The notes under the pieces were generated by a model. That model was given only the letters and a program-made list of their open reading frames with translations, searched no databases and had not been told where the DNA came from. This document shows, one piece after another, positions 7,034 to 63,746 of a DNA stretch of 64,000 nt. Source of the stretch: Chiloscyllium plagiosum (lineage: Eukaryota); NCBI RefSeq assembly GCF_004010195.1, contig NC_057712.1, positions 26,533,688 through 26,597,687 on the forward strand, written 5' to 3'. How positions within the stretch are numbered: the stretch's first letter is position 1; every line of letters begins with the position of its first letter. The position numbers were made by a program, and so were the translations under genes.

Positions 7034-7838
7034 GGAGAAAGTGAGGACTGCAAATGCTGGAAATCAGCGTCGAAATTTGTGGCGCTGGAAAAGCACAGTG
7101 TGTCAGGCAGCATCCGAGGAGCAGGAGAATCGATGTTTCAGGCATAAGCCTTTCATCAGGAATGTGGGTTGTAGGAAGGGGGCTGAGAGATAAATAGCAG
7201 GGTGGGGGTTGGGCAAGGGGAAGGTAGCTGGGAAGGCATTAGGTAGATGCAAGTGGAGGGGTGGTGATGGTGATAGATCAGAGGGAAAGGTGAGCTGTGT
7301 TGGGGGGGGGGGTGGAAATTGAAGTGGTCGGCTACAGGGTGGTGGGGTTGTTTAGTCCCAGAGATGTTCTGTGAAACATTCTGCGAGTTGGCATCCTGTC
7401 TTCCCCAATGTAGAGGAGACCACATCACATTGAGAGCAACAGACACAGTAGATAAGGTGTTTAGATATGCAAGAAAATGTGGAAGAATCCTTTGGAGCCT
7501 GGGACAGAGGTGAGGGGGGAGGTGTGGGGGAAAGTTTTACACCTTTTGTGGCAGCAAGGGAAGGTGCCAGGAGTGGGGTGGGGCAGGGGGGTTTGTTGGT
7601 AAGGGGCGTGAACCTAACAAGGGAGTCCTGGAGGGAATGGTCTCTACGGAATTCTGATAGGGGTGGGAAGGGAAATATATCTCTGGTGTTGGGGTCTGAC
7701 TGTATATGGCGGAAATGGTGGAGGATAGTGCACTGTATCCAGAGATTAGTGGGGTGGAAGGTGAAGACCGGGGGCTTCTATCCTTGTTACAATTGGAGGA
7801 GTGGAGTTTAAGGTCGGAGATGCTGGAAATGGAGGAGG
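7034..7838 (-). mobile_element. Penelope-like element 3' part
   Basis: GIY-YIG C-terminal residues (PVADHFN), terminal GCATCTGCAGTCCTCACTTTCTCC-type end, and a hammerhead motif at 7131-7160. Confidence 0.85.
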
Positions 7839-7878
7839 AGTGCAGTCAGAGGGGAATACTGGGGTCTTCATGTTAAAT

Positions 7879-10446
7879 TTATTTTATTTCAAAAAAATAC
7901 GTTATTCATCAAAAAAACTCTTTGTATATATACATTGTCGCAAAAGCAGTTCAGATCTGTACAGTTGCATATCAAGTAAAGAAACAAACATTGGACTTTG
8001 ACTCTACTCAAAAAACCAAAGGCCTCTCTTACACAGGGAGAAAGTGAGGTCTGCAGATGCTGGAGATCACAGTCGAAATGTGTTGCTGGGAAAGCAGAGC
8101 GTGTCAGGCAGCATCCGAGGAGCAGGAGAATCGACGTTTCAGACATAATCCCTCCATCAGGAATGAGGCTTGTGGGCTGGGGGCTGAGAGATAAATAGGA
8201 GGAAGGGTGGGTTTGGGGGGAAGCGATAGGTGCTTGAAGGTGAGGGAGAAGGTGATAAGTGAGGGGGGAGTGATGGACAGGTCAGGAGGGCGGTGCTGAG
8301 TTGGAGAATTGGGATTGGGATAATGTGGAGGATGGGGAAATGTGGAAGCTGTTGAAATCCACATTTATCCCAAGTGGTTGCAGGGTCCCAAGGCAGAATA
8401 TGAGGTGTTCTTCCTCCAGGCATCGGGTGGTAATGATTTGGTGATGGAGGAGGCCCAGGACCTACATGTCCTTGACTGAGTGGGAGAGGGAGTTGAAGTG
8501 TTCAGCCACAGGGCGGTGGGGTTGGTGGGTGCAGGTGTCCCAGAGATGTTCTCTGAAGCGATTCGCAAGAAGGTGTCCTGTCTCCCCGATGTAGAGGAGA
8601 CCACACCAGGTGGAACGGATACAGTAGATCACATTGGTAGAGGTACTGGTAAATTTCTGACAGATGTGGAAGGATCCCTTTGGGCCTTGGATGGAGGGGA
8701 GGGGTGTGGGCACAGATTTTGCATTTCCTGTGGTGCCAGGGAAAAGTGCCAGGAGTAGGATGTGGGCTGGTGGGGGTTGTGGACCTGATGAGGGAGTCGT
8801 GGAGCGAATGGACTCTTGGGAACGCTGATAGGGTGGGGAAGGAAATATATCTTTGGTGGTGGGGTCCATTTGGAGGTGGCAGAAGTGGCGGAGGATAGTG
8901 CGATGTATGCGGAGGTTGGTGGGTGGAAGGGAGGACTGGGGGGGGGTTCTGTCCTTGTTGAATTGAGATGTGTGGGGTTCAAGAGCGGTGGTGCGTGAGT
9001 GGAGGAGATGTGCTGGAGGACATCATCAACCACGTGGGAAGGGAAGTTGCGATCTTGGAAGGAAGAGGCCATCTGGGACTTTCTGAGGTGGAATTGGTCA
9101 TCCTGGGAACAGAAGCGGTGGAGATGGAGGAATTGGGAATAAGGGATAGTGTTTTTACAGGAGGTAGAGTGGGAGGATGTGTCATCTAGGTAGTTGTCGG
9201 AGTCTATTACAAGGTGGCTTGTAATAGATGTCTGTGGTTAGTCAATCACCAGAGATGGTGATGGAGAGGACCAGGAAGGGGAGGGAGGTATCTGAGATGG
9301 TCCAGGTGAATTTGAAGTATGGGTGTTGGTAAAGTTGATGAACTGTTCAATCTCTTCATGGGAGCACAAGGTGGCACTGATACAGTCATCGATGTAGCGG
9401 AGGAACAGATGGGGGATGGTGTCATGTCACTGCAGAAGGTGGACTGTTCCACACACCCAACAAACAGGCAGGCATAGCTGGGTCCCATGTAGGTGTCCAT
9501 GGCTACCCCTTTGGTTTGGAGTAAATGGGAGGATTGGAAAAAGAAATTGTTGAGGGTGAGGACCAGTTCAGCCAGGTCAATGAGGGTGTCAGTGGAAGGG
9601 TACTGGTTGGGACAGCATGAAAGGAAGAAACAGAGGGCTTGGAGACCTTCATCATGGCAGATTGATGTGTACAGGGACTGGATGTCCATGGTGAAGATGA
9701 GGCATTGGGGGCCAGGAAAATTAAAATCTTGGAGGAGGTGAAGGGCGTGGGTGGTGTCACAAATGTAGGTGGGGAGTTCCTGAACTAAAGGGGGACAGGA
9801 CTGTGTCAAGGTAGGAAGTGATGAGGCACAGGCTGAGACAATGGGTCGACCGGGGCAGTCAGGTTTGTGAATCTTCGGTAGGAGGTAGAATTAGGCGGTG
9901 CAGGGATCACAGACAATGAGGTTGGAGGCTATGGATGGGAAATCCCCAGAGGTGATGAGATTGTGGATGGTCTGGGAGATGATGGTTTGGTGATGGGAGG
10001 TGAGGTCATGATCAAGGGGGCAGTAGGAGGAGGGGTCTGCGAATTGTCGCCTGGCTTCAGTGGTGGAGAGTTCGGTGCGCCACACCACTACTGCACACTA
10101 CTACCTCTCTTATACATACAATACCAATATTTACATATAGGTGAGGCACTAGGAACACCCAATAACTGAATGACCCCCATTTATCTTCAGCAGGAAGGCC
10201 TCAGACAGTGGTCTTTCCCCACTGTCCCTTGGCGGCAGCTGCCTCAAGCTTTAGTACATCCCTCAGCATGTAGTCTTGGACCATGGAATGTGCCAGTCAG
10301 TCCCACTCAGTCAGGGTCAGCTCCTTGTTCTGGAAGACCAAGAAGGTTCAGGCAGACCAAAGAGCATCTTTCACTGAATTGATGGTCCTCCGAGCACAGT
10401 TGATGTTTATCTATGTGTGTATCCTAAGGAACAGAACACAGAACAG
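7879..10446 (-). mobile_element. Tx1/L1-clade LINE 3' fragment (family B), interrupted by the Penelope at 8036-10103
   Basis: The minus strand of about 10205-10440 encodes the Tx1-type ORF2 end (NINCARRTINSVKDALWSA...VFQNKELTLTE...VQDYMLRDVLKLEAAAAKGQWGKTTV*). The 3' UTR continues at 7879-8035 with an A-rich tail. TGTTAAAT flanks both sides (7871-7878, 10451-10458). Confidence 0.75.
8036..10103 (-). mobile_element. Penelope-like element (RT + GIY-YIG), frameshifted
   Basis: RT motifs FTMDIQSLYTSI, KGVAMDTYMGPSYA and YIDD. GIY-YIG motif NVIYCIRSTWCGLLYIGETG...RFREH. 13-bp TSD CCTCTCTTAC/TACA (8023-8035, 10104-10116). Confidence 0.93.
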
Positions 10447-20440: not shown

Positions 20441-22029
20441 AGAGTCATAGAGATGTACAGCATGGAAACAGATCCTTCGGTCCAACTCGTCCATGCAGAC
20501 TAGATATCTCAAACCAATCTAATCCCACCTGCCAGCACCCAGCCCATATCCCTCCAAACCCTTCCTATTCATATACCCAACCAGATGCCTCTTAAATGTT
20601 GCAATTGTACTAACCTCCACCACTTCCTCTGGCAACTCATTCCATACACGTACAACCCTCTGCGTGAAAAAATTGCCCCTTAAGTCTCTTTTATATCTTT
20701 CCCCTCTCACCCTAAACCTATGCCCTCTAGTTCTGGACTCCCTGACCCTAGGGAAAAGGCTTTGTGTATTTATCCTATCCATGCCCCTCATGATTTTATA
20801 AACCTCGATAAGGTCACCCCTCAGCCTCTGACGCTTCAGGGAAAACAGTCCCAACCTGTTCAGCCTCTCCCTATAGCTCAAATCCTCCAACCGTGGCAAC
20901 ATCCTTGTAAATCTTTTCTGAACCCTTTCAAGTTTCACAACATCTTTCTGATAAGAAGGAGACCAGAATTGCATCCAATATTCCAACAGTGGCCTAACCA
21001 ATGTCCTGTACAGCCGCAACATGACCTCCCAACTCCTGTATTCAGTACTCTGACCAATAAAGGAAAGCATACTAAACACCTTCTTCACTATCCTATCTAC
21101 CTGCAACTCCACTTTCAAGCACTATGAACCTGCACTTCAAGGTCTCTTTGTTCAACAACACTCTCTAGGACCTTACCATTAAGTGTATAAGTCCTGCTAA
21201 GATTTGCTTTCCCAAAATGCAGCACCTCACATTTATATAAATTAAACTCTATTTGCCACTTCTCAGCCCACTGGCCCAACTGATCAGGCTTCTGTTGTAA
21301 TCTCAGGTAACCCTCTTCACTGTCCACTACACCTCCAATTTTGGTGTCATCTGCAAACTCACTAACTATACCTCTTATGCTCACATCCAAATCAATTATA
21401 TAAATGATGAAAAGTAGTGGACCCAGCATCGATCCTTGTGTCACTCCACTGGTTACAGGCCTCCAGGTTAAAAGGCAACCCTCCATCACCACCCTCTGTC
21501 TTCTACCTTTGAGCCAGTTCTGTATCCAAATGGCTAGTTCTCTCTGTATGCCATGAGATATAACCTTGCTAACCAGTCTTCAATGGGGTAGCCTTGTCGA
21601 ATGCCTTACTGAATCCATACAGATCACATCCACCGCTCTGCCCTCATCAATCCTCTTTGTTACTTCTTTGAAAAGCTCAATCAAGTTTGTGAGACAGATT
21701 TCCCACGCACAAAGCCATGTTGACTATCCCTAATCAGTCCTTTCCACATACACGTACATCCTGTCCATCAGGATTCGCTCCAACAACTTGCCCACCACAA
21801 CATCAGGCTCACTGGTCTATAGTTCCCTGGCTTGTCCTTACCAACTTTCTTAAACAGTGGCACCACATTAGCCAACCTCCAGTTTCCGGCACCACACCTG
21901 TGACTGTCGATGATACAAATATTTCAGTAAGAGGCCCGGCAATCACTTCCCTAGCTTCCCAGAGTTCTAGGGTACACCTGATCAGGTCCTGGGAATTATC
22001 TACTTTTATGGGTTTCAAGACATCCAGCA
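20441..22029 (-). mobile_element. CR1 (HER1-like) LINE, 5'-truncated RT region
   Basis: VTSGVTQGSMLGPLLF, FADDTK, LYRTLVRPLLEY and FFTQRVVRVWNELP...GRWD*, with the tail at 20441. Confidence 0.95.
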
Positions 22030-25720: not shown

Positions 25721-25817
25721 CTGAATGAGTGAAACAGGAGCAGAAGACAACCATTCAGCCCCTCAAGACTGCTCAACAATTAATAAGGTCATGGCTGACC
25801 TGTTTGTGTTGCAAATT

Positions 25818-27792
25818 TGAAATAATTGCTACAGAGGCTAGTGAGCCATCACCAAGTCACCCTTTATTTACTTATGCACAGGACGCTATCTGTGGCTGGC
25901 CAGCCAGCTCAGAGCCAGTCCCCTGAAATGAGGCAATTCTAAATTCCCTATTAATTTATTTTTCTTCCCTTTCTCCCCCGCCTAACATCAGTAGTGCTTA
26001 TTTTTCCCCAGCACCCATGTTATGTATGTGCAGGTGTCAGACACAGTAAAGAAAATTCCCTGTTAATTTTTTTTTCTTTGTTCCCCCCCCACACTACCAC
26101 CTAAGTGCGGTAGTGCTTATTTTTTTCCCCAGCACCCATGATGTGTGTGTGCAGGTGTGAGACACAGTGAAAGACACAAAGTGCATGAATTCCACCACCA
26201 GGAAGATAGGAAAACACCCGGGTGGCCAGTGACAAACACTGCCCTTCACATCAAAGGGCAGTGCTGTGTGAACAAAACAGTGAAGGGGAGGGTAGGGACT
26301 AAATCAAAATAGAATTGGACGGAGAAATGATGCACTCCACTCCCTCAGACCTGCCCTCCCTCCTCCGTATCGGGTGCCCAAAGATCAGGAGCGTGAGACT
26401 GAAGTGCAGCCAAAAGCAGAGCAGGAGGTTTTTAAGAAAATCAAAAAGGGAGTGCAAATGCCCACACCCAATATATACATGGTCCACAGACTCCACAGCG
26501 CCACAGAACAAGCAGTTGAATTCCCTGTTAATTTTTTTTTCCTTTTTTTTTCTTAATAATTTAACCCCACACTACCACCTAAGTGTGGTAGTGCTTATTT
26601 TTTCCCCAGCACCCATGGTGTGTGTGTGCAGGTGTGAGACACAGTGAAAGACACAAAGTGCACAAATCTTTATTCAAATTCCACCACCAGGAAGATAGAA
26701 AAACACCCGGGTGACCAGTGACAAACACTGCCCTTCACATCAAAGGGCAGTGCTGCGTGATCAAAACAGTGAAGGGGAGGGTAGGGACTAAATCAAAATA
26801 GAGTTGGAGGGAGAAATAATGTACTCCACTCCCTGCGGCGCCCACCTCTCCCTGAACAACTCCAGGGTGTTGGTCGACACCGCGTGCTCCTTCTCCAAGG
26901 ACACCCGGGCCCTAACGTAACCGCGGAAGAGGGGCAGGCAGGAATTCCCTGTTAATTTTTTATTTTTCTTTTTTTTTTTACACTGCCCTTTACCTCCAAG
27001 GGCAAGCACACCTGTTTTATTTTTCTTCCCCACACTACCACCTAAGTGCAGTAGTGCTTATTTTATCCCCAGCACCCATGGTGTGTATGTGCAGGTCTGA
27101 GACACAGTGGAAAAAAAACTTCTGTTTATTTTTTTTTATTTTAACCCCCACACTACCACCTAAGTGCGGTAGTGCTTATTTTATCCCCAGAACCCATGGT
27201 GTGTGTGTGCAGAGACACAGTGGAAGACACAAAGTGCACCAATCTTTATTCAATTTCCACCACCAGGAAGATAGGAAAACACCCGGGTGGCCAGTGACAA
27301 ACACTGCCCTTCACATCAAAGGGCAGTGCTGTGTGATCAAAACAGTGAAGGGGAGGGTAGGGACTAAATCAAAATAGAATTGGAGGGAGAAATGATGCAC
27401 TCCACTCCCTGCGGCGCCAACCTCTCCATGAACAACTCCAGGGTGTTGGTCGACACCGCGTGCTCCTTCTCCAAGGACACCCGGGCCCTAACGTAACCGC
27501 GGAAGAGGGGCAGGCAGGAATTCCCTGTTAATTTTTTTTTTCAAAATAGAGTTGGGACTTCACATTTCATTTTTTTTTTCTCCTGGTTATTATTTCGAGT
27601 CCTTGCGCAAACACCCAAGTGGCCTGTGACAAGCAGTCTCCAAGGACACCCGGGCCCTAACGTAACCGCGGAAGAGGGGCAGGCAGGAATTCCCTGTTAA
27701 TATTGGTCAGCCACTGCCTCCTGATTGGCCCAGGTTAACAACCCCTGTCAAGGACCTCATAGTCAATGAGGTCTACCTGTTTCCAATCCACA
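25818..27792 (-). mobile_element. Solo LTR (Gypsy-like), about 230 bp, split by the Tx1 array
   Basis: On the minus strand: TG start near 27792, CCAAT box (CCAATCAGG, 27720-27728), TATA-like AATATTAACAGG (27693-27704), AATAAA (25863-25868), and end ...TTATTTCA at 25818. Confidence 0.75.
25942..27701 (-). mobile_element. Tandem array of 5'-truncated Tx1-clade LINE 3' ends (family A)
   Basis: Repeated polyA-tailed units. The ORF2 C-terminus includes the CCHC finger CLFCGAVESVDHVYIGC and CLPLFRGYVRARVSLEKEHAVSTNTLELFRERWAPQGVECIISPSNSILI*. The spacer AATTCCCT(G/A)TTAAT occurs six times. Confidence 0.9.
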
Positions 27793-28847
27793 TTCCACAT
27801 TCCTATCCATCCCCAATAATCTTTGATACCTCATCTGATAAGAAGCTATCCCCCTCATTCTTAAGAAGGTTCAAAAACCCTGATTCCACCACTTTCTGAG
27901 GCAGAACCATCCAATGTCATACAATCCTCAGAGAATACGTTCTCATAAAGATCTTGGAATATGGTAGCTAGTGTGAAGAAAAAGGGGATGTGATTTCGAC
28001 ACCAATCCACTCCGCTGCTGACTATGGGGAATCCTGGCCTTGACTAGATTATTCCAAGTGAGAAAACTCCCAAGCTAGAATTTCATGCAAAGAACTGTTC
28101 CAAACATAAGTGTATACATTTTATTTGGTCAGAAAATTGAAGCCTATAAGTCAATAATGTCAGGTTGGTTGTTTTTGAAATGGTGCAGGTCACAAATCAA
28201 TGAATCAAACTTAAAGAGAGTTCAACTATCTGAGTTACAGTTTGAATCAGGAATTCAAGATTTGGAAAGGGTATTCAACCTGTGGAATAAATTATCAGAG
28301 TTGGTCATTGAGTCAGGCAGTATTAATGCCCTTGAGACAACTTTGTCTGTTTTCTCGGTTGGCGGAATGGCTAGGAAGATGGTGAGAATATTGAGTGTGA
28401 GCTATCAAAAAAAAAGATAAAATTGTTGGGGTTTAATAATCTCCTCCTATCTCTTTGAAATCATTTGTTAATCTTGTTTTGAAATTTCATGTAACATTTC
28501 ATATCTTTTCATGCCATTAATGTGTGGGAGGAATGAAGTTGAGAATGTCACACTTCCATCTTCTCAAGAATAGGGGTGAGATTTCACTTGTTCAGCATTT
28601 CTAGCACATTCAGTCACATTATCTAAGATTTGTTTTCCAAAGTGAAATACAGAGAAAACCTTCCCTTATGAAATCTGTGTGTATCTAATTCACCATCTCT
28701 ATTGTAGCACTGAAGCAATTAATTTAATAGTATAATATACTTGAAGTTGGAGGATGGGGTAAGTTAAATTTATGGCAAACTTACAAATGTAAAAAGCTAA
28801 ACATTACTGCAGGTAATCTTATCATTCAAAAATTCATGATCTCCTTT

Positions 28848-29809: not shown

Positions 29810-30416
29810 TCATACAGTCAGAGAGTCATAGAGATGTACAGCACAGAAACAGACCCTTCAGTCCAACTCATCTATGCCAACCCGATATCTTAACCTAATC
29901 TAGTCCCATTTGCCAGCATTTAGCCCATGTCCCTCTAAATCCTTCATATTCGTATACCCATTCAGATGACTTTTAAATGCTGTAATTGTACCAGCCTCCG
30001 CCATTTCCTCTAACAACTCATTCCATACATGCACCACCCTCTGCAAGAAAAAGTTGCCCCTAAGGTGGCTTTTCAATTTTCTATGCTCTCCAGTTCTGGA
30101 TTCCCCCGCACTAGGGAAAAGACCTTGCCTATTTACCCTCTCCCTGTCCCTCGCGATTTTATAAACCTCAATAAGGTCACCCCTCAGCCTCTGATGCTCC
30201 AGGGAAAACAACCCTAGCCTATTCAGCCTCTCCCTAAAGCACAAATCCTCCAACCCTGGCATCATCTTTGTAAATCTTTTCTGAACCCTTTCAAGTTTCA
30301 CAACATCCTTTTGATAGGAGGGAGACCAGAATTGCACACAATTTTCCAAAAGTGCCCTAATCAATGGGCTCTGCAGCCAAAGCATGACCGCCCAACTCCT
30401 AAACTCAATCTTCTGA
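29810..30416 (-). mobile_element. CR1 (HER1-like) LINE 3' end
   Basis: CVQFWSPSYQKDVVKLERVQKRFT...GKWD*, followed by the tail. Confidence 0.93.
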
Positions 30417-31671
30417 TGAAGAATGTAAACAAACTGGGCTAAGTACATAAAGCAGATTAGAACACAGATTAGTATTAATTGAGAAATTTGGTGACTCATT
30501 AAGCTTGCACTTTCTATAGACCACATCAAGTCTACTGTTAACGTGAACTCAACACAACCTATTTAACCTGCTACAAACTCGGCTCTGCAATAGATTTTAG
30601 TTCAGTGGTATCAATCGTTCCTCTGAGACTCTGGGCATCTTTCTTTGGTGACAGTTCACTCACACTGATCTATACCCAAATGAACAATACTGTAACAGGT
30701 GAAAAAGGGAACTGCTTTGTGACCTGATGCTATCTTTTGTACATTTTCTCGATTTCTCTAGTGGTGGACTTGGTCAGATCTAAATTATTAAGTTACTTTA
30801 TTGAATATACAGAGTAATTACAATCAGACTCACTCAATTAAATCTAGATTATTTTGTATTATCATACAAAAATAAATAAAGAACTCATCAGACTTGCCCC
30901 AATCACTAAGTGATCTTAAAAATGATGACTAAATTATCCTCAGAAAAATTCTAACCTCAAAGTTAATCAGCCACAGGGAGATGGTGAGTCAAAATGGCAG
31001 GGGGATACATCAGAGTGGGAATTAGATGTCTTCCTGCTACGTAACAAATTTCTCAGGAGCAGAACTGGGAATAAACAAGGTAGACATGGGCAAGCAATTG
31101 AGGCTGTTAAGCCTAGCAATTTGGCAGTAGCAAAACACAATCACCCACTGAGAATTCCAGTACAACTACATATATTTGTAAGAAAGTTTCCAGATACTTT
31201 GAAATTGTGCTCTCCAGGTGCCAGTAGCTGTTGTGAGTACAGGTTGCTCTCCTTTTTTTATTCCTTTGAATGAAATGGCCACTCTGGATGGCATGTTGGT
31301 ATTTGAGCTTTTGAAGGGCATATGCCACCTTGCAGTAATATTTCAACTGAGATCTCAAAACTGTGGAGCCAACCTTACAGGTAATCTGTCATTCTTGCAC
31401 AGATCTCTTGTTAGCACCCTTTCCAATTCCCTCTGTGCACCAACTGTATGAAGGATGTCAACAGCTTCTCAAATTTGTTGTTGCCTCTCTTTGACATGCT
31501 GGAACTTTCTATTGGCTTGTTCTCCCACCAGCTAAATAATAATGTTTGCAGGTGAGGATATCCAAAATTCAATCCTGATGTCAGGACTTTTTCTCAGTTG
31601 CAAAATCCTGCCCTAATACATCTCAGTGAAAGCTCTTCCAGTTTTTTGTGGAAACAATCATCTTCTTTGAG

Positions 31672-31800: not shown

Positions 31801-32838
31801 TCTTCTTAGCCTTTCTTCAACACAGCCAAACTGCTTACCTGACTCAGCACTTCCAGTGCCTTGTGCATCCCCAGCAAGAACCACATCCCTCAACCATCTA
31901 AAAGATGACCTGACTCTTCTTTGTATTTTATAATTTGGAGGTGCTGGTTTTGGACTGAGTGTACAACTTTGAAAATCATGTAACACCAGATAATAGTCCA
32001 CCAGTTTAATTGGAAGCACTAGCTTCCTTGGAGCGCTGTTCCTTCATCAGGTGGTTTGGAGTCAAACATCGTAGGACACAGAATTTATAGCAAAAGTTTA
32101 CAGTGTGATATAACTGAAATTATATATTGAAAAAGACCTGGATTGTTTGTTAAGTCTCCCATCTTTTAGAATGGGCATGTTGGTTTCAGTTCTTTCATAT
32201 GTAAATTCCAGAACTTTCTTAAAGTTACATTCTCAAGTGAATTTAACAATAGGTGCTATGTTGGCCCAGATAGTGCAGTGAAGGTGGGAGGTGTCATGTG
32301 TGAGGCTGTCTATGCCCCAGTGTTCAGACAATGCAGGAAAGCAGGAAAGATTCCAAAAGGATTACGGATCACGAACCCACTTAAGTCAACCTACAATACA
32401 GGCTACATGTAAAGACTTTGCCACCGCGTAAACTCCTCAATCATCTCATGCACCAACTCTACAGCAGGCGCCACAACCCTGAAATTAAGATGGCGTCCAC
32501 ACTCACAGACTGCACTCAGGATACAGCAGTACAGTTACGGGACATTGCCAAACAGGCAAGGCGACAAAACTACACCACGTATATACATACCAAAAACAAG
32601 AAATTTGGCATCACCACCAGCAATAGCCAAGCCCACCCTGGCACCAAGGTGAAAAACGTTATCACCGTGAGGAAATCGATCGTCAACTTATCAGATCACA
32701 CCCTTCAAGTGGAAGAGATTGAAGTTCTTAGCAGACGTGTCAATTTCTGCCCCACCACCAAAATGGACCCCCATGGGTCTTGCAGCAGACACAGTGGAAT
32801 TCATCAGACGAATGAAAATCCAGGAATTCTTTCAAGAT

Positions 32839-33019
32839 TCAAAGTTTATGAGAAGATTTGTAGCTCGGGTGCTCATTGTTGTGGTTCTGTTCGCCGAGCT
32901 GTGAATTTGTGTGCAGATGTTTCATCCCCTGTCTAGGTGACATCCTCAGTGCTTGGGAGCCTCCTGTGAAGCGCTTCTGTGATGTTTCCTCCAGCAATAA
33001 TAATGGTTTGTCTCTGCCG
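32839..33019 (-). mobile_element. Second-family Penelope 3' end nested in the large Penelope
   Basis: Perfect 10-bp TSD CTTTCAAGAT (32829-32838, 33020-33029) and hammerhead motif CTGAGGA-TGTCACC/GGGGAT-GAAAC (32915-32949). Confidence 0.85.
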
Positions 33020-34756
33020 CTTTCAAGATGCCAGCAGTGATCCCAATAAGCCCACAGAGGAACCGGAACAGTCATCACAGGGATCTGTAGAGAAGTAACC
33101 AAAGAAAGAATTAACTTGACCCCCACTGGAGGGTCACTATCCTGAGCTTGACATGCATGTTCAAAACGTCAGGAAATATATAAATGATCCTCATTGATGT
33201 GGGTTCATCAACCGTACCCACAAGGTAGAGCAAAGCATCACATGATCACAAGGCAACACCATCCATACTCTTAAAACCAATTACAACATTGTCTTCAAAC
33301 CGACAGATAAAGGAGGAGCCATCATCATTCAGAATAGAACAGATTGCTGCAAGGAAGTGTACCGACAACTGAACAACCAGGAACACTACAGGCATCTACT
33401 AGCCAATTCAACCAAAGAGTACACCCGTAAACTAAACACATTGATCAGGATTTTGGCTCCAGTACTTCAGAGTTCCCTACACACCCTCACCCCACATACA
33501 TCTCACGTAGGCAACTTCTACTTCCTTCTGAAGATACACAATGCCAACACATCAGGACATCCCATCATATCAGGCATTGGGACTCTGTGTGAGAACCTCT
33601 CTGGCTATGTCGAAGGCATCTTGAAACCCACTGTACAGGTGACCCCCAGCTTCTGCCACGACGCTACAGATTTCTTACAGAAACTCAGCACCCATGGACC
33701 AGTCGAACCAGGAACATTCCTCGTCACAATGGATGTTTCAGCACTCTACACTAGCATCTCCCACAATGATGGCATCGCGGCAACAGCCTCAGTGCTCAAT
33801 GTAAATCTCTGAGCACTGTCCTACAACTCATCCACTTTATCCTCGACCACAACCTTTTCACCTTTGCAAACCAATTCTTCATCCAGACGCACAGAACAGC
33901 CATGGGGACAAAATTTGCACCCCAATATGCCAACATTTTTATGCACAGGTTTGAACAAGACTTATTCTCTACTCAGGACCTCCAACCAACACTATACACC
34001 AGGTACATTGATGACATTTTCTTCCTCTGGACACATGGATAGGAGTCACTGAAAAAGTTACACAGTGATATCAACAAATTTCATCCCACATCAATGGACT
34101 ACTCTCTACTATCTGTCTCATTCTTGGACACATGCATCTCCATCAAGGATGGGCACCTCAGCACCTCACTCTACCGCAAACCCACAGATAACCTCACAAT
34201 ACTACACTTCTCTAGCTTCCACCCAAAACATATTAAAACAGCTATCCCCTATGGACAAGTCCTACGCAAACACAGCATCTGTTCAGATGAGGGGAAGCAT
34301 GATGGATACTTGGAAGTATACAATCTTGACATGGTAAATGCTGCAAGACGTGTCAGAGTTTCAACACGGATACCACCAGTACACATGGGGACATCTCTCA
34401 CCATGTACGTGGCAGGTTCTCATGTGACTCAGCCAACTCGTCTATCTTATATGTTGCAAACAAGGATGCCCTGAGGCATGGTACATTGGTGAGACCGAGC
34501 AGAGGCAACGGCAATAGATGAATGGACACTGCACAACAATCAACAGACAGGAGTGTTCCCTCCCAGTCGGATAACACTTCAGCGGTCCAGGACACTTGAC
34601 CTCAGACCTTCGGGTGACCATCTTCCAAGGTGGAGATTGGGACAGCCAACAACGAAAAGTGGCCGAGCAGAGGCTGATAGCCAAGTTCGGTACCCATGGG
34701 AATGCCTCAACCGGGACCTTGGGTTCATGTCACGCTACAGATGACACCACTGCACT

Positions 34757-34982
34757 ACACACACATACACACAGATACTTCTACAGACACACTCACACAC
34801 TCCCACAGACCCATACACTCATGCATACCCCTCTCATATACTCACACATACACTCACACAAGCACCCTTTCACAGACTTATACCCCTTTACACACACATA
34901 CACACACATACACATGCTCTCTCACAGACACTCATATCCCCCCCACACCACACACACACACACCCCATGCACACGTACACAT
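34757..34982. repeat. Imperfect (CA)n low-complexity tract in the Penelope 3' UTR
   Basis: Long run of ACAC/ACTC/ATAC units. Confidence 0.9.
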
Positions 34983-35344
34983 ATAAGTTTGTGCGATGAA
35001 TTTGTATTTGCAGAATTACATTTTATTTTGCTCAAAAACTGCTTAAGGTTCTGTAATTCCCTTTATTAGATTAGAATCAGTCTGAACATTGGGGCACAGA
35101 CAGCCTCACATAGGGCACCTCACCTTCACTGCATTATCTGGGCCAACATGGCACCTACTATTAAAGTTCACTTGAGAATGTAACTTTAAGAAAGTTCTGG
35201 GATTTACATATGAAAGAACTGAAACTAACATTCCCATTCTAAAGAGACTTAAACAATCCAGGTCTTTTTCAATATATAATTTCAGTTACATCACACTGTA
35301 AATCTTTGCTATAATTCTGTGTCCTACGATGTTATACTCCACAA

Positions 35345-62228: not shown

Positions 62229-62800
62229 TAGAGTTGAAAATGTGTTGCTGGAAAAGCGCAGCAGGTCAGGCAGCATCCAAGGAGCAGGAGAATCGACGTT
62301 TCGGGCATAAGCCCTTCTTCAGGAATGAGGAAAGTGTGTCCAACAGGCTAAGATAAAAATTAGGGAGGAGGGACTTGGGGGAGGGGCGTTGGAAATGCGA
62401 TAGGTGGAAGGAGGTCAAGATGAGGGTGATAGGCTGGAGTGGGGGTGGGGGCGGAGAGGTCAGGAAGAAGATTGCAGGTTAGGAAGGCGGTGCTGAGTTC
62501 GAGGGATTTGACTGAGACAAGGTGGGGGGAGGGGAAATGAGGAAACTGGAGAAATCTGAGTTCATCCCCTGAGGTTGGAGGGTTCCTAGGCGGAAGATGA
62601 GGCGCTCTTCCTCCAACCGTCGTGTTGCTATGGCAATGGAGGAGTCCAAGGACCTGCCTGTCCTTGGTGGAGTGGGAGGGGGAGTTGAAGTGTTGAGCCA
62701 CGGGGTGGTTGGGTTGGTTGGTCTGGGTGTCCCAGAGGTGTTCTCTGAAATGTTCCACAAGTAGGCGGACTGTCTCCCCAATATAGAGGAGGCTACATCA
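62229..62800 (-). mobile_element. Penelope-like element 3' part
   Basis: LYIGET..EHFREHL..PVAQHFN..EEERLIFRLGTLQPQGMNSDF, with a hammerhead at 62293-62323. Confidence 0.92.
62292..62326 (-). ncRNA. Minimal type I hammerhead ribozyme motif (intact core)
   Basis: Minus strand CCTGAAGA-A-GGGC ttat GCCC-GAAACGTC-GA. Confidence 0.75.
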
Positions 62801-62867
62801 AGCCACACCTGATGTGGCCTCCTCTATATTGGGTACCCGATGTGGCCTCCTCTATATTGGGCACCCG

Positions 62868-63746
62868 ATATTACAGGGTGACCTGGACAGATTATGTGAG
62901 TGGTCAGATGCATGGCAGGTGCAGTTTAATGTGGATAAATGGATGGTTATCCACTTTGGTGGCAAGAACAGAAAGGCAGATTACTACCTAAATGGAATCA
63001 ATTTAGGTAAAGGGGCAGTACAAAGAGATCTGAGTGTTCTTGTACACCAGTCAATGAAGGTAAGCATGCAGGTACAGCAGGTAGTGAAGAAGGCTAATAA
63101 CATGCTGGCCGTCATAACAAGAGGGATTGAGTATAGAAGCAAAGAGGTTCTTCTGCAGCTGTACAGGGCCCTGGTGAGACCACACCTGGAGTACTGTGTG
63201 CAGCTCTGGTCTCCAAATTTGAGAAAAGACATTCTGGCTATTGAGGGAGTGCAGCGTATGATCACGATATCAATTCCTGGAATGGCGGGACTACCTTACA
63301 CTGAAAGACTGGAGCGACTGGACTTGTATACCCTTGAGTTTAGAAGACTGAGAGTGGATCTGATTGAGACATATAAGATTATTAAAGGATTAGATACTCT
63401 GGAGGCAGGAAACATGTTTCCGCTGATGGGTGAGTGCCGAACCAGAGGACACAGCTTAAAAATACGGGGTAGACCATTTAGGACAGAGATGAGGAGAAAC
63501 TTCTTCACCCAGAGAGTGGTGGCTGTGTGGAATGCTCTGCCCCAGAGGGCAGTGGAGGCCCAGTCTCTGGATTCATTTAAGAAAGAGTTGGATAGAGCTC
63601 TCAAGGATAGTGGAATCAAGGGTTATGGAGATAAGGCAGGAACAGGATACTGATTAAGGATGATCAGCCATGATTATATTGAATGGTGGTGTAGGCTCGA
63701 AGGGCAGAATGGCTTACTCCTGCACCTATTGTCTATTGTCTATTGT
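62868..63746 (+). mobile_element. Young CR1 LINE 3' part (uninterrupted ORF2 C-terminus)
   Basis: LQGDLDRLCEWSDAWQVQFNVDK...LYRALVRPHLEYCVQLWSP...FFTQRVVAVWNALP is open to 63653, followed by a (CTATTGT)n tail. Confidence 0.95.

What the first reader, a model, noticed from the sequence alone, without database searches (positions are those of the whole stretch)
25818..27792. Candidate sequence-specific Tx1 retrotransposon that stacks up in the TATA box of an LTR retrotransposon
Seen: a solo LTR of about 230 bp (minus strand TG...CCAAT...AATATTAACAGGG...AATAAA...CA) is split exactly at its TATA-like motif by about 1.75 kb of head-to-tail, co-oriented, polyA-tailed Tx1-type 3' ends. Units span about 25956-26053, 26068-26518, 26533-26942, 26957-27008, 27021-27115, 27130-27518 and 27533-27687. 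The same 14-mer AATTCCCT(G/A)TTAAT recurs at 25942, 26054, 26519, 26943, 27519 and 27688, abutting the polyT side of a unit except for the last copy, which rejoins the LTR. Units have several different 5' truncation points and levels of divergence. Known: Tx1-clade families are often target-specific (Tx1L in Tx1D transposons, Keno in U2, Mutsu in 5S, Koshi and Kibi in microsatellites), and TPRT regenerates the target as a TSD. Inference: a hyperparasitic LINE targets the LTR promoter, disrupting it while placing itself just downstream of the CCAAT/TATA elements. I do not know of a described Tx1 family with this target.
Basis: partly seen in the sequence, partly recalled or inferred. Interest (0 to 1): 0.88.

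Follow-up and report, generated by a model that had tools for sequence, protein, structure and literature searches.

The report
LINE homing into LTR promoter site
A jumping gene related to the frog element Tx1L has landed again and again at one 14-letter spot at the TATA-like box of an old retrotransposon's end-repeat; such aimed landing is known, but here the full-length copies and a non-coding passenger element start with sequence taken from that end-repeat, so they likely borrow its promoter.

Summary
A Tx1L-lineage LINE (ORF2 51% identical to Xenopus Tx1L) inserts at a 13-15 bp motif at the TATA-like box of a decayed Gypsy-order LTR family. Orientation is the same as the LTR in 13 of 13 cases, and the duplicated target separates the stacked units. 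Tx1 families that prefer LTR retrotransposons are already in print (crocodilians, PMC4494074). This scan has noted the same targeting at 8 other places in this genome.

Not in those notes as shown to me:
(1) Array units share 5' junctions (85/350 within arrays vs 482/24,843 between) but are mosaics, not whole-unit duplicates.
(2) Older full-length copies begin with LTR sequence from just past the target. 28 of 30 younger ones begin with a 25 to >1,200 nt copy of their own 3' region.
(3) A non-coding ~1.85 kb passenger family (1,283 search candidates) has an inherited LTR-derived head and uses the same site.

Promoter borrowing is inferred, not shown; passenger heads start too close to the motif for a canonical TATA start. 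The LTR family is old and broken, so a safe-haven role is likelier than active silencing.

The parts
27702..27792 (-). 5' part of solo LTR (U3-like, two CCAAT words); exact TG start uncertain by about 2 nt
   Evidence: matches intact natural LTR copies
27688..27701 (-). target copy 1 (14 bp, TATA-like motif), LTR-side junction
27637..27687 (-). unit A, first piece: 50 nt of ORF2 3' region with the same 5' junction as units B and D
27597..27636 (-). unit A, second piece: short copy spanning the joint between the self-derived 5' lead and the LTR-derived remnant of full-length elements; 41/41 identical to a poly(A)-tailed piece in L119
27533..27596 (-). unit A, remainder: non-local target variant, A-tract, 16-nt 3'-region piece, poly(A)
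27519..27532 (-). target copy 2
27130..27518 (-). unit B: ORF2 C-terminal 50 codons, 3' UTR, poly(A)
27021..27129 (-). non-local target variant, then an 86-nt terminal 3' UTR piece (27028-27113) and tail
26957..27020 (-). non-local target variant, then a ~29-nt diverged 3' UTR hairpin piece and poly(A)
   Evidence: (D7)
26943..26956 (-). target copy 3
26533..26942 (-). unit D: same 5' junction as B, first ~70 nt identical to B, then diverged; different tail
26519..26532 (-). target copy 4
26068..26518 (-). unit E: longer 5' extent with a ~200-nt internal deletion at 26345
26054..26067 (-). target copy 5
25956..26053 (-). unit F: diverged terminal 3' UTR piece and tail
25942..25955 (-). target copy 6 (one substitution), rejoining the LTR
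25818..25941 (-). 3' part of solo LTR (R/U5-like, AATAAA core at 25849-25871, ends in CA)

Best explanation
The array is a stack of 5'-truncated copies of a Tx1L-lineage LINE that sit, all in one orientation and separated by a duplicated 13-15 bp word, at the TATA-like motif of a Gypsy-order LTR family; the element's endonuclease likely picks that word, and the full-length element likely borrows the LTR's upstream promoter. Shown: the fixed site, orientation, TSD, APE+RT ORF2 in the Tx1L clade, shared-junction mosaic units, LTR-derived or self-derived 5' ends of full-length copies, and a non-coding passenger family at the same site. Inferred: (1) TPRT starts from a bottom-strand nick in the motif, and each TSD rebuilds the target. 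(2) When a new copy enters a TSD that has a resident unit behind it, second-strand joining often happens 20-75 nt into that unit, so the old junction is copied onto a new 3' end and tail. (3) Full-length RNAs are made from the LTR promoter or by read-through from upstream units, which is how LTR and own-3'-end sequence became their heads. (4) The passenger family, short 5'-end transcripts and at least one tRNA-Met are moved in trans by the same ORF2 protein. The main benefit is likely a harmless, promoter-adjacent landing site in thousands of dead LTRs.
For: Site: 25 of 41 evaluable Tx1 3' ends chosen without regard to the LTR are followed by the motif (<=1 mismatch), vs 5 of 75 control A-runs, p=3.5e-10 (27 of 68 loci had no callable end). 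Genome-wide, 294 of 3,777 exact 3' termini have the exact degenerate 12-mer within 28 nt, reversed-pattern control 0. Among 67 LTR cores taken in chromosome order, 18 of 26 internal breakpoints fall within -15..+9 of the motif, p=4e-8. 13 of those 67 carry a LINE or passenger piece, 13 on the same strand and 0 opposite. 38 of 68 Tx1-selected loci show an LTR half. TSD: 16 of 33 split LTRs give 11-17 bp. Protein: PF03372, PF00078 and a sub-threshold zf-RVT hit; 51% identity over 1,187 aa to Tx1L; clade support 100/100. Mosaics: sister-unit divergence is 0.052 vs 0.095 control in the first 50 nt (ratio 0.54, CI 0.42-0.66) but 0.088 vs 0.095 at 100-400 nt (0.93, CI 0.81-1.03), over 34 arrays. Heads: 4 older full-length copies align to intact LTRs just past the target (scores 57-82, shuffled max <=28). 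28 of 30 younger copies have a self-derived lead ending at one joint. L322 and L323 are single full-length insertions in solo LTRs that carry such a lead. Passenger: 25 of 30 copies start at the motif behind an LTR half (12) or a poly(A) tail (13). In L309, L313 and L315 its head differs from the host LTR's own 3' half, so the head is inherited.
Against: No transcription start site was seen: one search gave no start peaks, 320 reads in one run, 0 in the other, and the species may not be the window's. Passenger heads in non-matching hosts start about 12 nt from the first T of the motif, closer than the ~25-30 nt expected from a canonical TATA box (recalled), so the RNA must start upstream or the motif is not the working TATA box. 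30 of 68 Tx1-selected loci show no LTR half, including 12 of 29 gap-free ones; some have a TSD at a look-alike word outside an LTR (L011). The source of long leads is unresolved: 7.3% divergence from the copy's own 3' region vs 7.6% expected, 10.8% from sister units vs 8.8% expected, and only 5 of 21 leads have a sister unit. Which sister is 3'-shorter shows no polarity (18 upstream, 22 downstream, 21 equal). The LTR remnant in the young subfamily is not significant on its own (scores 16-28 vs shuffled max 25). No nicking assay was done.
Confidence: 0.72

Rival explanations
1. Targeting is real, but the LINE has its own internal promoter. The LTR-derived and self-derived heads are passive 5' transductions or long target duplications with no role, and the TATA position is incidental to an A/T-purine word the endonuclease likes.
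For: No start-site data. Heads start too near the motif for a canonical TATA start. Insertions occur at look-alike words outside LTRs (L011). The 5' UTR is ~500 nt with internal repeats and could hold a promoter.
Against: Two unrelated elements (LINE and passenger) both carry inherited heads from the same stretch just past the target. 28 of 30 young copies carry upstream-derived leads, which an internal promoter would not produce so often.
Confidence: 0.2
2. Arrays grow mainly by DNA-level tandem duplication (unequal crossover or slippage) of one founder insertion.
For: Shared 5' junctions in 34 of 51 arrays, including a shared extra base in three window units. A few neighbouring units elsewhere look near-identical with their tails (e.g. 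L004, L292).
Against: Sister similarity fades to background beyond ~100 nt. Tails and 3' ends differ. Most within-array pairs (265 of 350) have different junctions, and arrays mix two families and a tRNA.
Confidence: 0.05
3. Shared-junction units come from local transcripts: the LTR promoter transcribes the first truncated unit, and that RNA is re-inserted at the same locus.
For: The shared junction is often the one next to the LTR 5' half, and 3' ends vary as premature polyadenylation would give (e.g. L016). Short 5'-end RNAs do get retroposed (window 27597-27636 = L119).
Against: It predicts similarity along the whole unit, which is not seen beyond ~100 nt.
Confidence: 0.1
4. Assembly artefact.
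For: The assembly is gapped, and gaps often abut these arrays.
Against: There are no Ns in the window array. Units differ by several percent and in their tails. The same anatomy recurs at dozens of loci, including simple single insertions with both TSDs (L159, L313, L322).
Confidence: 0.01

Closest known systems
Tx1L of Xenopus laevis (UniRef YTX2_XENLA, P0011), inserted in DNA transposon Tx1D
   Same: APE+RT ORF2 51% identical over 1,187 aa, one clade at 100/100; target inside another transposon; Tx1L endonuclease shown site-specific in vitro (PMC1950540, passages read)
   Different: The target here is an LTR motif. The beta-hairpin loop linked to target choice is 3 residues shorter and lacks Tx1L's RDGH tip. 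Stacked arrays, LTR-derived heads and a passenger family are seen here.
Tx1-8_Crp and Tx1-4_AMi (crocodilian Tx1; Kojima 2015, PMC4494074, sections 15 and 20 and passages read)
   Same: Tx1 families preferentially inserted into specific LTR retrotransposon groups
   Different: The paper places them with Keno, whereas this element groups with Tx1L (they were not in my tree). Their site within the LTR is not in the main text, and the supplement could not be read, so identity of target cannot be excluded.
SINEU-2/-3 with Tx1-Mar (same paper)
   Same: Non-autonomous passengers sharing a Tx1 target inside another transposon, tandem copies around a TSD, and proposed transcription from flanking target sequence
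   Different: Their heads come from snRNA and the target is Mariner. The passenger here is ~1.85 kb with a head from the LTR target itself.
R1 and R2 of Drosophila (Stage and Eickbush 2009, PMC2718515, passages read)
   Same: 14-bp TSD, tandem arrays by insertion into the 5' TSD of a resident copy, target sequence carried on the RNA that anneals to give precise 5' junctions, R2 co-transcribed with its target
   Different: Different clades, and the target is 28S rDNA. No copying of a resident unit's junction was seen in the passages read.
HeT-A and TART telomeric elements (PMC5537684, passages read)
   Same: Head-to-tail arrays, promoter supplied from upstream (HeT-A), non-terminal repeat between the 5' end and 3' region (TART)
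   Different: Telomeric, another clade (recalled: jockey group). The repeat here is not perfect (7% divergent), and the promoter would come from a foreign LTR.

Membership tests
Tx1 clade (Tx1L lineage) | ORF2 with N-terminal APE endonuclease, RT and C-terminal zinc-binding region | tested here: met
   PF03372 E 6e-12 (L118), PF00078 E 5e-35 (L128), zf-RVT E 3e-5 but below the curated cut-off
Tx1 clade (Tx1L lineage) | RT phylogeny groups with Tx1L | tested here: met
   3 natural copies fall in a 100/100 clade with Tx1L, turtle, sturgeon-labelled and stingray proteins; 28 rows; P0001 left out as too short
Tx1 clade (Tx1L lineage) | ORF1 upstream of ORF2, poly(A) tail, frequent 5' truncation | tested here: met
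   An ORF1-like frame is shared by L112, L122, L146 and L133 (no Pfam hit); tails and truncations
Target-specific Tx1 (Kojima 2015 criterion) | One sequence type in more than 20% of flanks | tested here: met
   LTR half in 38 of 68 loci; motif after 25 of 41 ends
Target-specific Tx1 | Endonuclease nicks the target in vitro | not testable with these tools
   needs a bench assay
Tx1-8_Crp / Tx1-4_AMi group | Clusters with Keno/Tx1-Mar; same LTR site | not testable with these tools
   sequences and supplement not available; the element clusters with Tx1L
Ty3/Gypsy LTR retrotransposon (the target) | RT, RNase H, integrase order between LTRs | tested here: inconclusive
   RT_RNaseH E 2e-15 and 4e-11; Integrase_H2C2 E 0.003 (below cut-off) downstream of RT-like residues in L180; frames broken; BEL/Pao not formally excluded
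Ty3/Gypsy LTR retrotransposon (the target) | TG...CA ends, PBS, PPT, 4-6 bp TSD | tested here: met
   7 of 16 copies match at least 4/5 at 5 bp vs 1 of 16 at 4 bp and 0 of 16 at 6 bp; PBS-like and purine-rich words seen by eye
SINE (for the passenger family) | Head from tRNA, 5S, 7SL or snRNA; short | tested here: not met
   no tRNA, no Rfam hit at E<=0.5, ~1.85 kb, head aligns to the LTR
R2-like co-transcribed element | No own promoter; 5' self-cleaving ribozyme | tested here: inconclusive
   no Rfam ribozyme in 4 loci; head folding z -1.0 to -2.35; start sites not seen
TART-like non-terminal repeat | 5' repeat near-identical to the same copy's 3' region | tested here: not met
   237 mismatches in 3,243 nt (7.3%) vs 7.6% expected from other copies

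The most novel reading that the evidence does not exclude
A promoter-less vertebrate LINE and its own ~1.85 kb non-coding satellite live entirely on a foreign LTR promoter. They home to its TATA site, are transcribed from it, and keep their 5' ends from eroding by carrying LTR-derived or self-derived leads that are renewed at integration, converging on the R2 and HeT-A/TART solutions. In doing so they have split about a fifth of the LTR family's copies from their downstream parts.
Probability: 0.35. Interest if true: 0.75.

Novelty: new variant of a known kind. Interest (0 to 1): 0.52.

Why it matters
The basic fact, a Tx1 LINE aimed at another transposon, is known. This case adds an exactly mapped 13-15 bp target with thousands of natural junctions and a close, biochemically studied relative (Tx1L) whose specificity loop differs. 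That makes it a direct test of how APE endonucleases change targets. The arrays record how the second strand is joined, a poorly understood step of TPRT: junction copying for about 50-75 nt into a resident unit. If promoter borrowing holds, it is a vertebrate example of a LINE and a long non-coding satellite that depend on another element's Pol II promoter.

Tried and rejected
- Whole-unit tandem duplication as the main origin of arrays: rejected.
- TART-like perfect repeat, or a sister unit, as source of the long leads: neither supported.
- Ribozyme or RNA-gene head: no Rfam hit in 4 loci; folding weak.
- Protein coding in the passenger family: tblastn with two Tx1 ORF2 proteins against 30 loci hit only neighbouring LINE pieces; the longest ATG-started frames in L247 were 77-125 aa.
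- Expression: no RNA holder listed. On L313, one poly(A) single-cell run gave 320 mostly partial reads, deepest near the passenger's 3' end with A-rich loose ends, and no start peak; the second run of the same sample gave 0. Internal priming and a different species are not excluded, so this is not used as evidence.
- My automatic A/B typing of LTR halves was unreliable and is not used; host type was read from the host's 3' half.
- 'Opposite-strand LTR' hits mostly co-occur with 5' halves (15 of 19) and likely reflect a near-palindrome there (inferred, not tested).
- PDB searches with LTR internal frames were uninformative. Pfam on six window ORFs gave nothing.
- Literature: 8 searches listed no paper on a Tx1 at an LTR TATA box or on this passenger. 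The library lacks most subscription papers and Repbase Reports, and the Kojima 2015 supplement was unreadable, so absence from print is not shown.

Full report
Observation. A 14-bp word occurs six times between 25942 and 27701 (6 matches of its core vs 1.10 expected, 0 of 100 shuffles). The flanks are the two halves of one ~235-bp LTR, which match intact natural copies on either side of the word. Between them lie co-oriented, poly(A)-tailed 3' pieces of a LINE; one encodes the last 50 residues of ORF2. Three units share one 5' junction with an extra C. Three further target variants inside the array do not match the local LTR.

The LINE. A search with an internal ORF2 segment gave 835 candidates, the best 40 at 97-99% identity. 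Among 39 fetched loci, several are near-full-length natural copies of about 7 kb with a repeat-rich 5' UTR, an ORF1-like frame and ORF2. ORF2 has APE and RT domains and a sub-threshold zf-RVT hit. One natural frame is 51% identical to Xenopus Tx1L over 1,187 residues. Three copies fall in a 100/100 clade with Tx1L; the nearest row is a stingray protein. The hairpin loop tied to target choice (PMC1950540, passages) is three residues shorter than Tx1L's. That the host is a cartilaginous fish is my inference from that neighbour and from recalled repeat types.

The target. An exact 23-mer of the LTR occurs 1,854 times. The family has TG...CA ends, a 5-bp TSD (7 of 16 at >=4/5), and RNase H followed by a weak integrase zinc-finger hit in broken internal frames, consistent with Ty3/Gypsy. 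Copies are about 80% alike.

Targeting tested from both sides. From the LINE side, in loci chosen without reference to the LTR, 25 of 41 callable 3' ends are followed by the motif, against 5 of 75 control A-runs; 27 of the 68 loci had no callable end. 38 of 68 show an LTR half, while the rest of the window shows none. Genome-wide, 294 of 3,777 exact termini have the exact degenerate 12-mer within 28 nt; this is a strict lower bound. From the LTR side, of 67 cores taken in chromosome order, 66 aligned and 26 had an internal breakpoint, 18 of them within -15..+9 of the motif (the 40 copies reaching -58 or further were classed as intact). 13 of 67 carry LINE or passenger sequence, all co-oriented. 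Among 29 other LTRs closest to the window's subtype, about 23 are broken at the site by eye. The TSD is 11-17 bp in 16 of 33 split LTRs; in the others matching stopped early, partly at substitutions. Against strict LTR specificity: 12 of 29 gap-free LINE loci show no LTR half, and some have a TSD at a look-alike word (L011). So the word, not the LTR as a whole, is likely what is read.

How arrays grow. Units of one array share a 5' truncation point in 85 of 350 pairs, against 482 of 24,843 between loci; 34 of 51 arrays have such sisters. Sisters are about half as divergent as controls over the first 50 nt and no closer beyond 100 nt. They are therefore mosaics: an old junction on a new 3' end. 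The likely route is insertion into a TSD that has a resident unit behind it, with the second strand joined some way into that unit. Unit A of the window fits: 50 nt of unit B's start, then an unrelated short piece. Locus L319 shows the same in an LTR context, with host-specific letters duplicated to about +35. Which sister is shorter shows no polarity, so the order of events is not settled. R1 arrays form by insertion into the 5' TSD (PMC2718515, passages).

5' ends. Four older full-length copies begin with about 65 nt that align to intact LTRs just past the target (scores 57-82 vs shuffled <=28). In 28 of 30 younger copies the 5' UTR is preceded by a copy of the element's own 3' region, 25 to more than 1,200 nt long, ending at one fixed joint before a short LTR-like remnant. 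The remnant alone is not significant. L322 and L323 are single insertions in solo LTRs, so their leads arrived with the element. The leads are no closer to their own 3' region or to sister units than to other copies, so their source is open: inheritance from a master copy or a template jump to another RNA. The window's piece 27597-27636 spans this joint and is identical to a tailed piece in L119.

A passenger family. A second tailed element shares the site and interleaves in arrays. It is about 1.85 kb, has no Tx1 ORF2 similarity, no tRNA and no Rfam match, and gave 1,155 and 1,283 candidates in two searches. 25 of 30 copies start at the motif behind an LTR half or a tail. Its first ~40 nt align to one LTR subtype even when the host LTR is another subtype (L309, L313, L315), so the head is inherited. 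It is absent from the window. A tRNA-Met copy with trailer and tail also sits at the motif in L010.

Mechanism. Site-specific TPRT with TSD regeneration is well supported. Promoter borrowing is inferred from the heads. One fact strains the simplest form: passenger heads in non-matching hosts start about 12 nt from the motif's first T, nearer than a canonical TATA start (recalled 25-30 nt). The RNAs must then begin upstream, by read-through or from another start, or the motif is not the working TATA box. RNA data did not show starts. The insertion leaves CCAAT and the motif intact upstream and cuts them off from R/U5. Since the LTR family is old and broken and the best-matching LINE copies are near-identical, a safe-haven role is likelier than active suppression.

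Known or new. Tx1L targets Tx1D. Kojima 2015 reports two crocodilian Tx1 families preferring LTR retrotransposons, and SINEU passengers possibly transcribed from their target (PMC4494074, sections 15 and 20 and passages); its supplement, which may give the site, could not be read. PMC3747384, PMC6719617 and PMC5537684 were seen as passages only. Eight searches listed no paper on this site or passenger, within the library's limits. Eight earlier notes of this scan report the same targeting elsewhere in this genome. As shown to me they do not mention heads, leads, mosaics or the passenger, and a sequence look-up with the passenger found nothing. Verdict: real, a new variant of a known kind, interest 0.52.

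Noticed in passing
L247 (minus strand, ~1120-2976), L309 323-2152, L313 328-2230: Non-coding ~1.85 kb poly(A)-tailed passenger family with an LTR-derived head and GC-rich internal repeats, inserting at the same motif and into its own head; over 1,000 search candidates; held by runs labelled as three organisms.
   Followed up: partly
L010 572-643 (-): tRNA-Met copy with 3' trailer and poly(A) between target copies inside an array; L273 and L282 show other tRNA-like pieces beside the target (by eye).
   Followed up: partly
L179 (G000:C1:28916300-28926200): Two-LTR element in which only the 5' LTR is split by a Tx1 piece, with a clean 16-bp TSD; internal region decayed.
   Followed up: partly
L039, L048, L066, L068, L074: LTRs with 20-70 nt of their own downstream sequence repeated before short poly(A) tracts at the target; either long target duplications or retrocopies of short LTR transcripts.
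   Followed up: no
L035, L043, L046, L156: Older, more diverged Tx1 3' UTR variants at the same site, suggesting long-lasting use of this target.
   Followed up: no
L187, L188, L082: Unrelated sequences (one unidentified ~105 nt piece, CR1/SINE-like pieces) also sit at or right behind the motif.
   Followed up: no
window 25735-25817 and 27793-27900: The solo LTR itself sits inside a short repeat that I recall as a shark SINE/LINE 3' type; not confirmed by any search.
   Followed up: no
window 7156-9890, 20519-21579, 29900-30562, 32385-35069, 62360-63653: Many decayed RT-like frames (CR1/L2-like and Penelope-like by recall) make up much of the window; six frames scanned had no Pfam hit.
   Followed up: no
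L042 214-807, L105 7890-8600: Von Willebrand A-like exons (by eye) flank one split LTR, so some arrays likely lie in introns.
   Followed up: no
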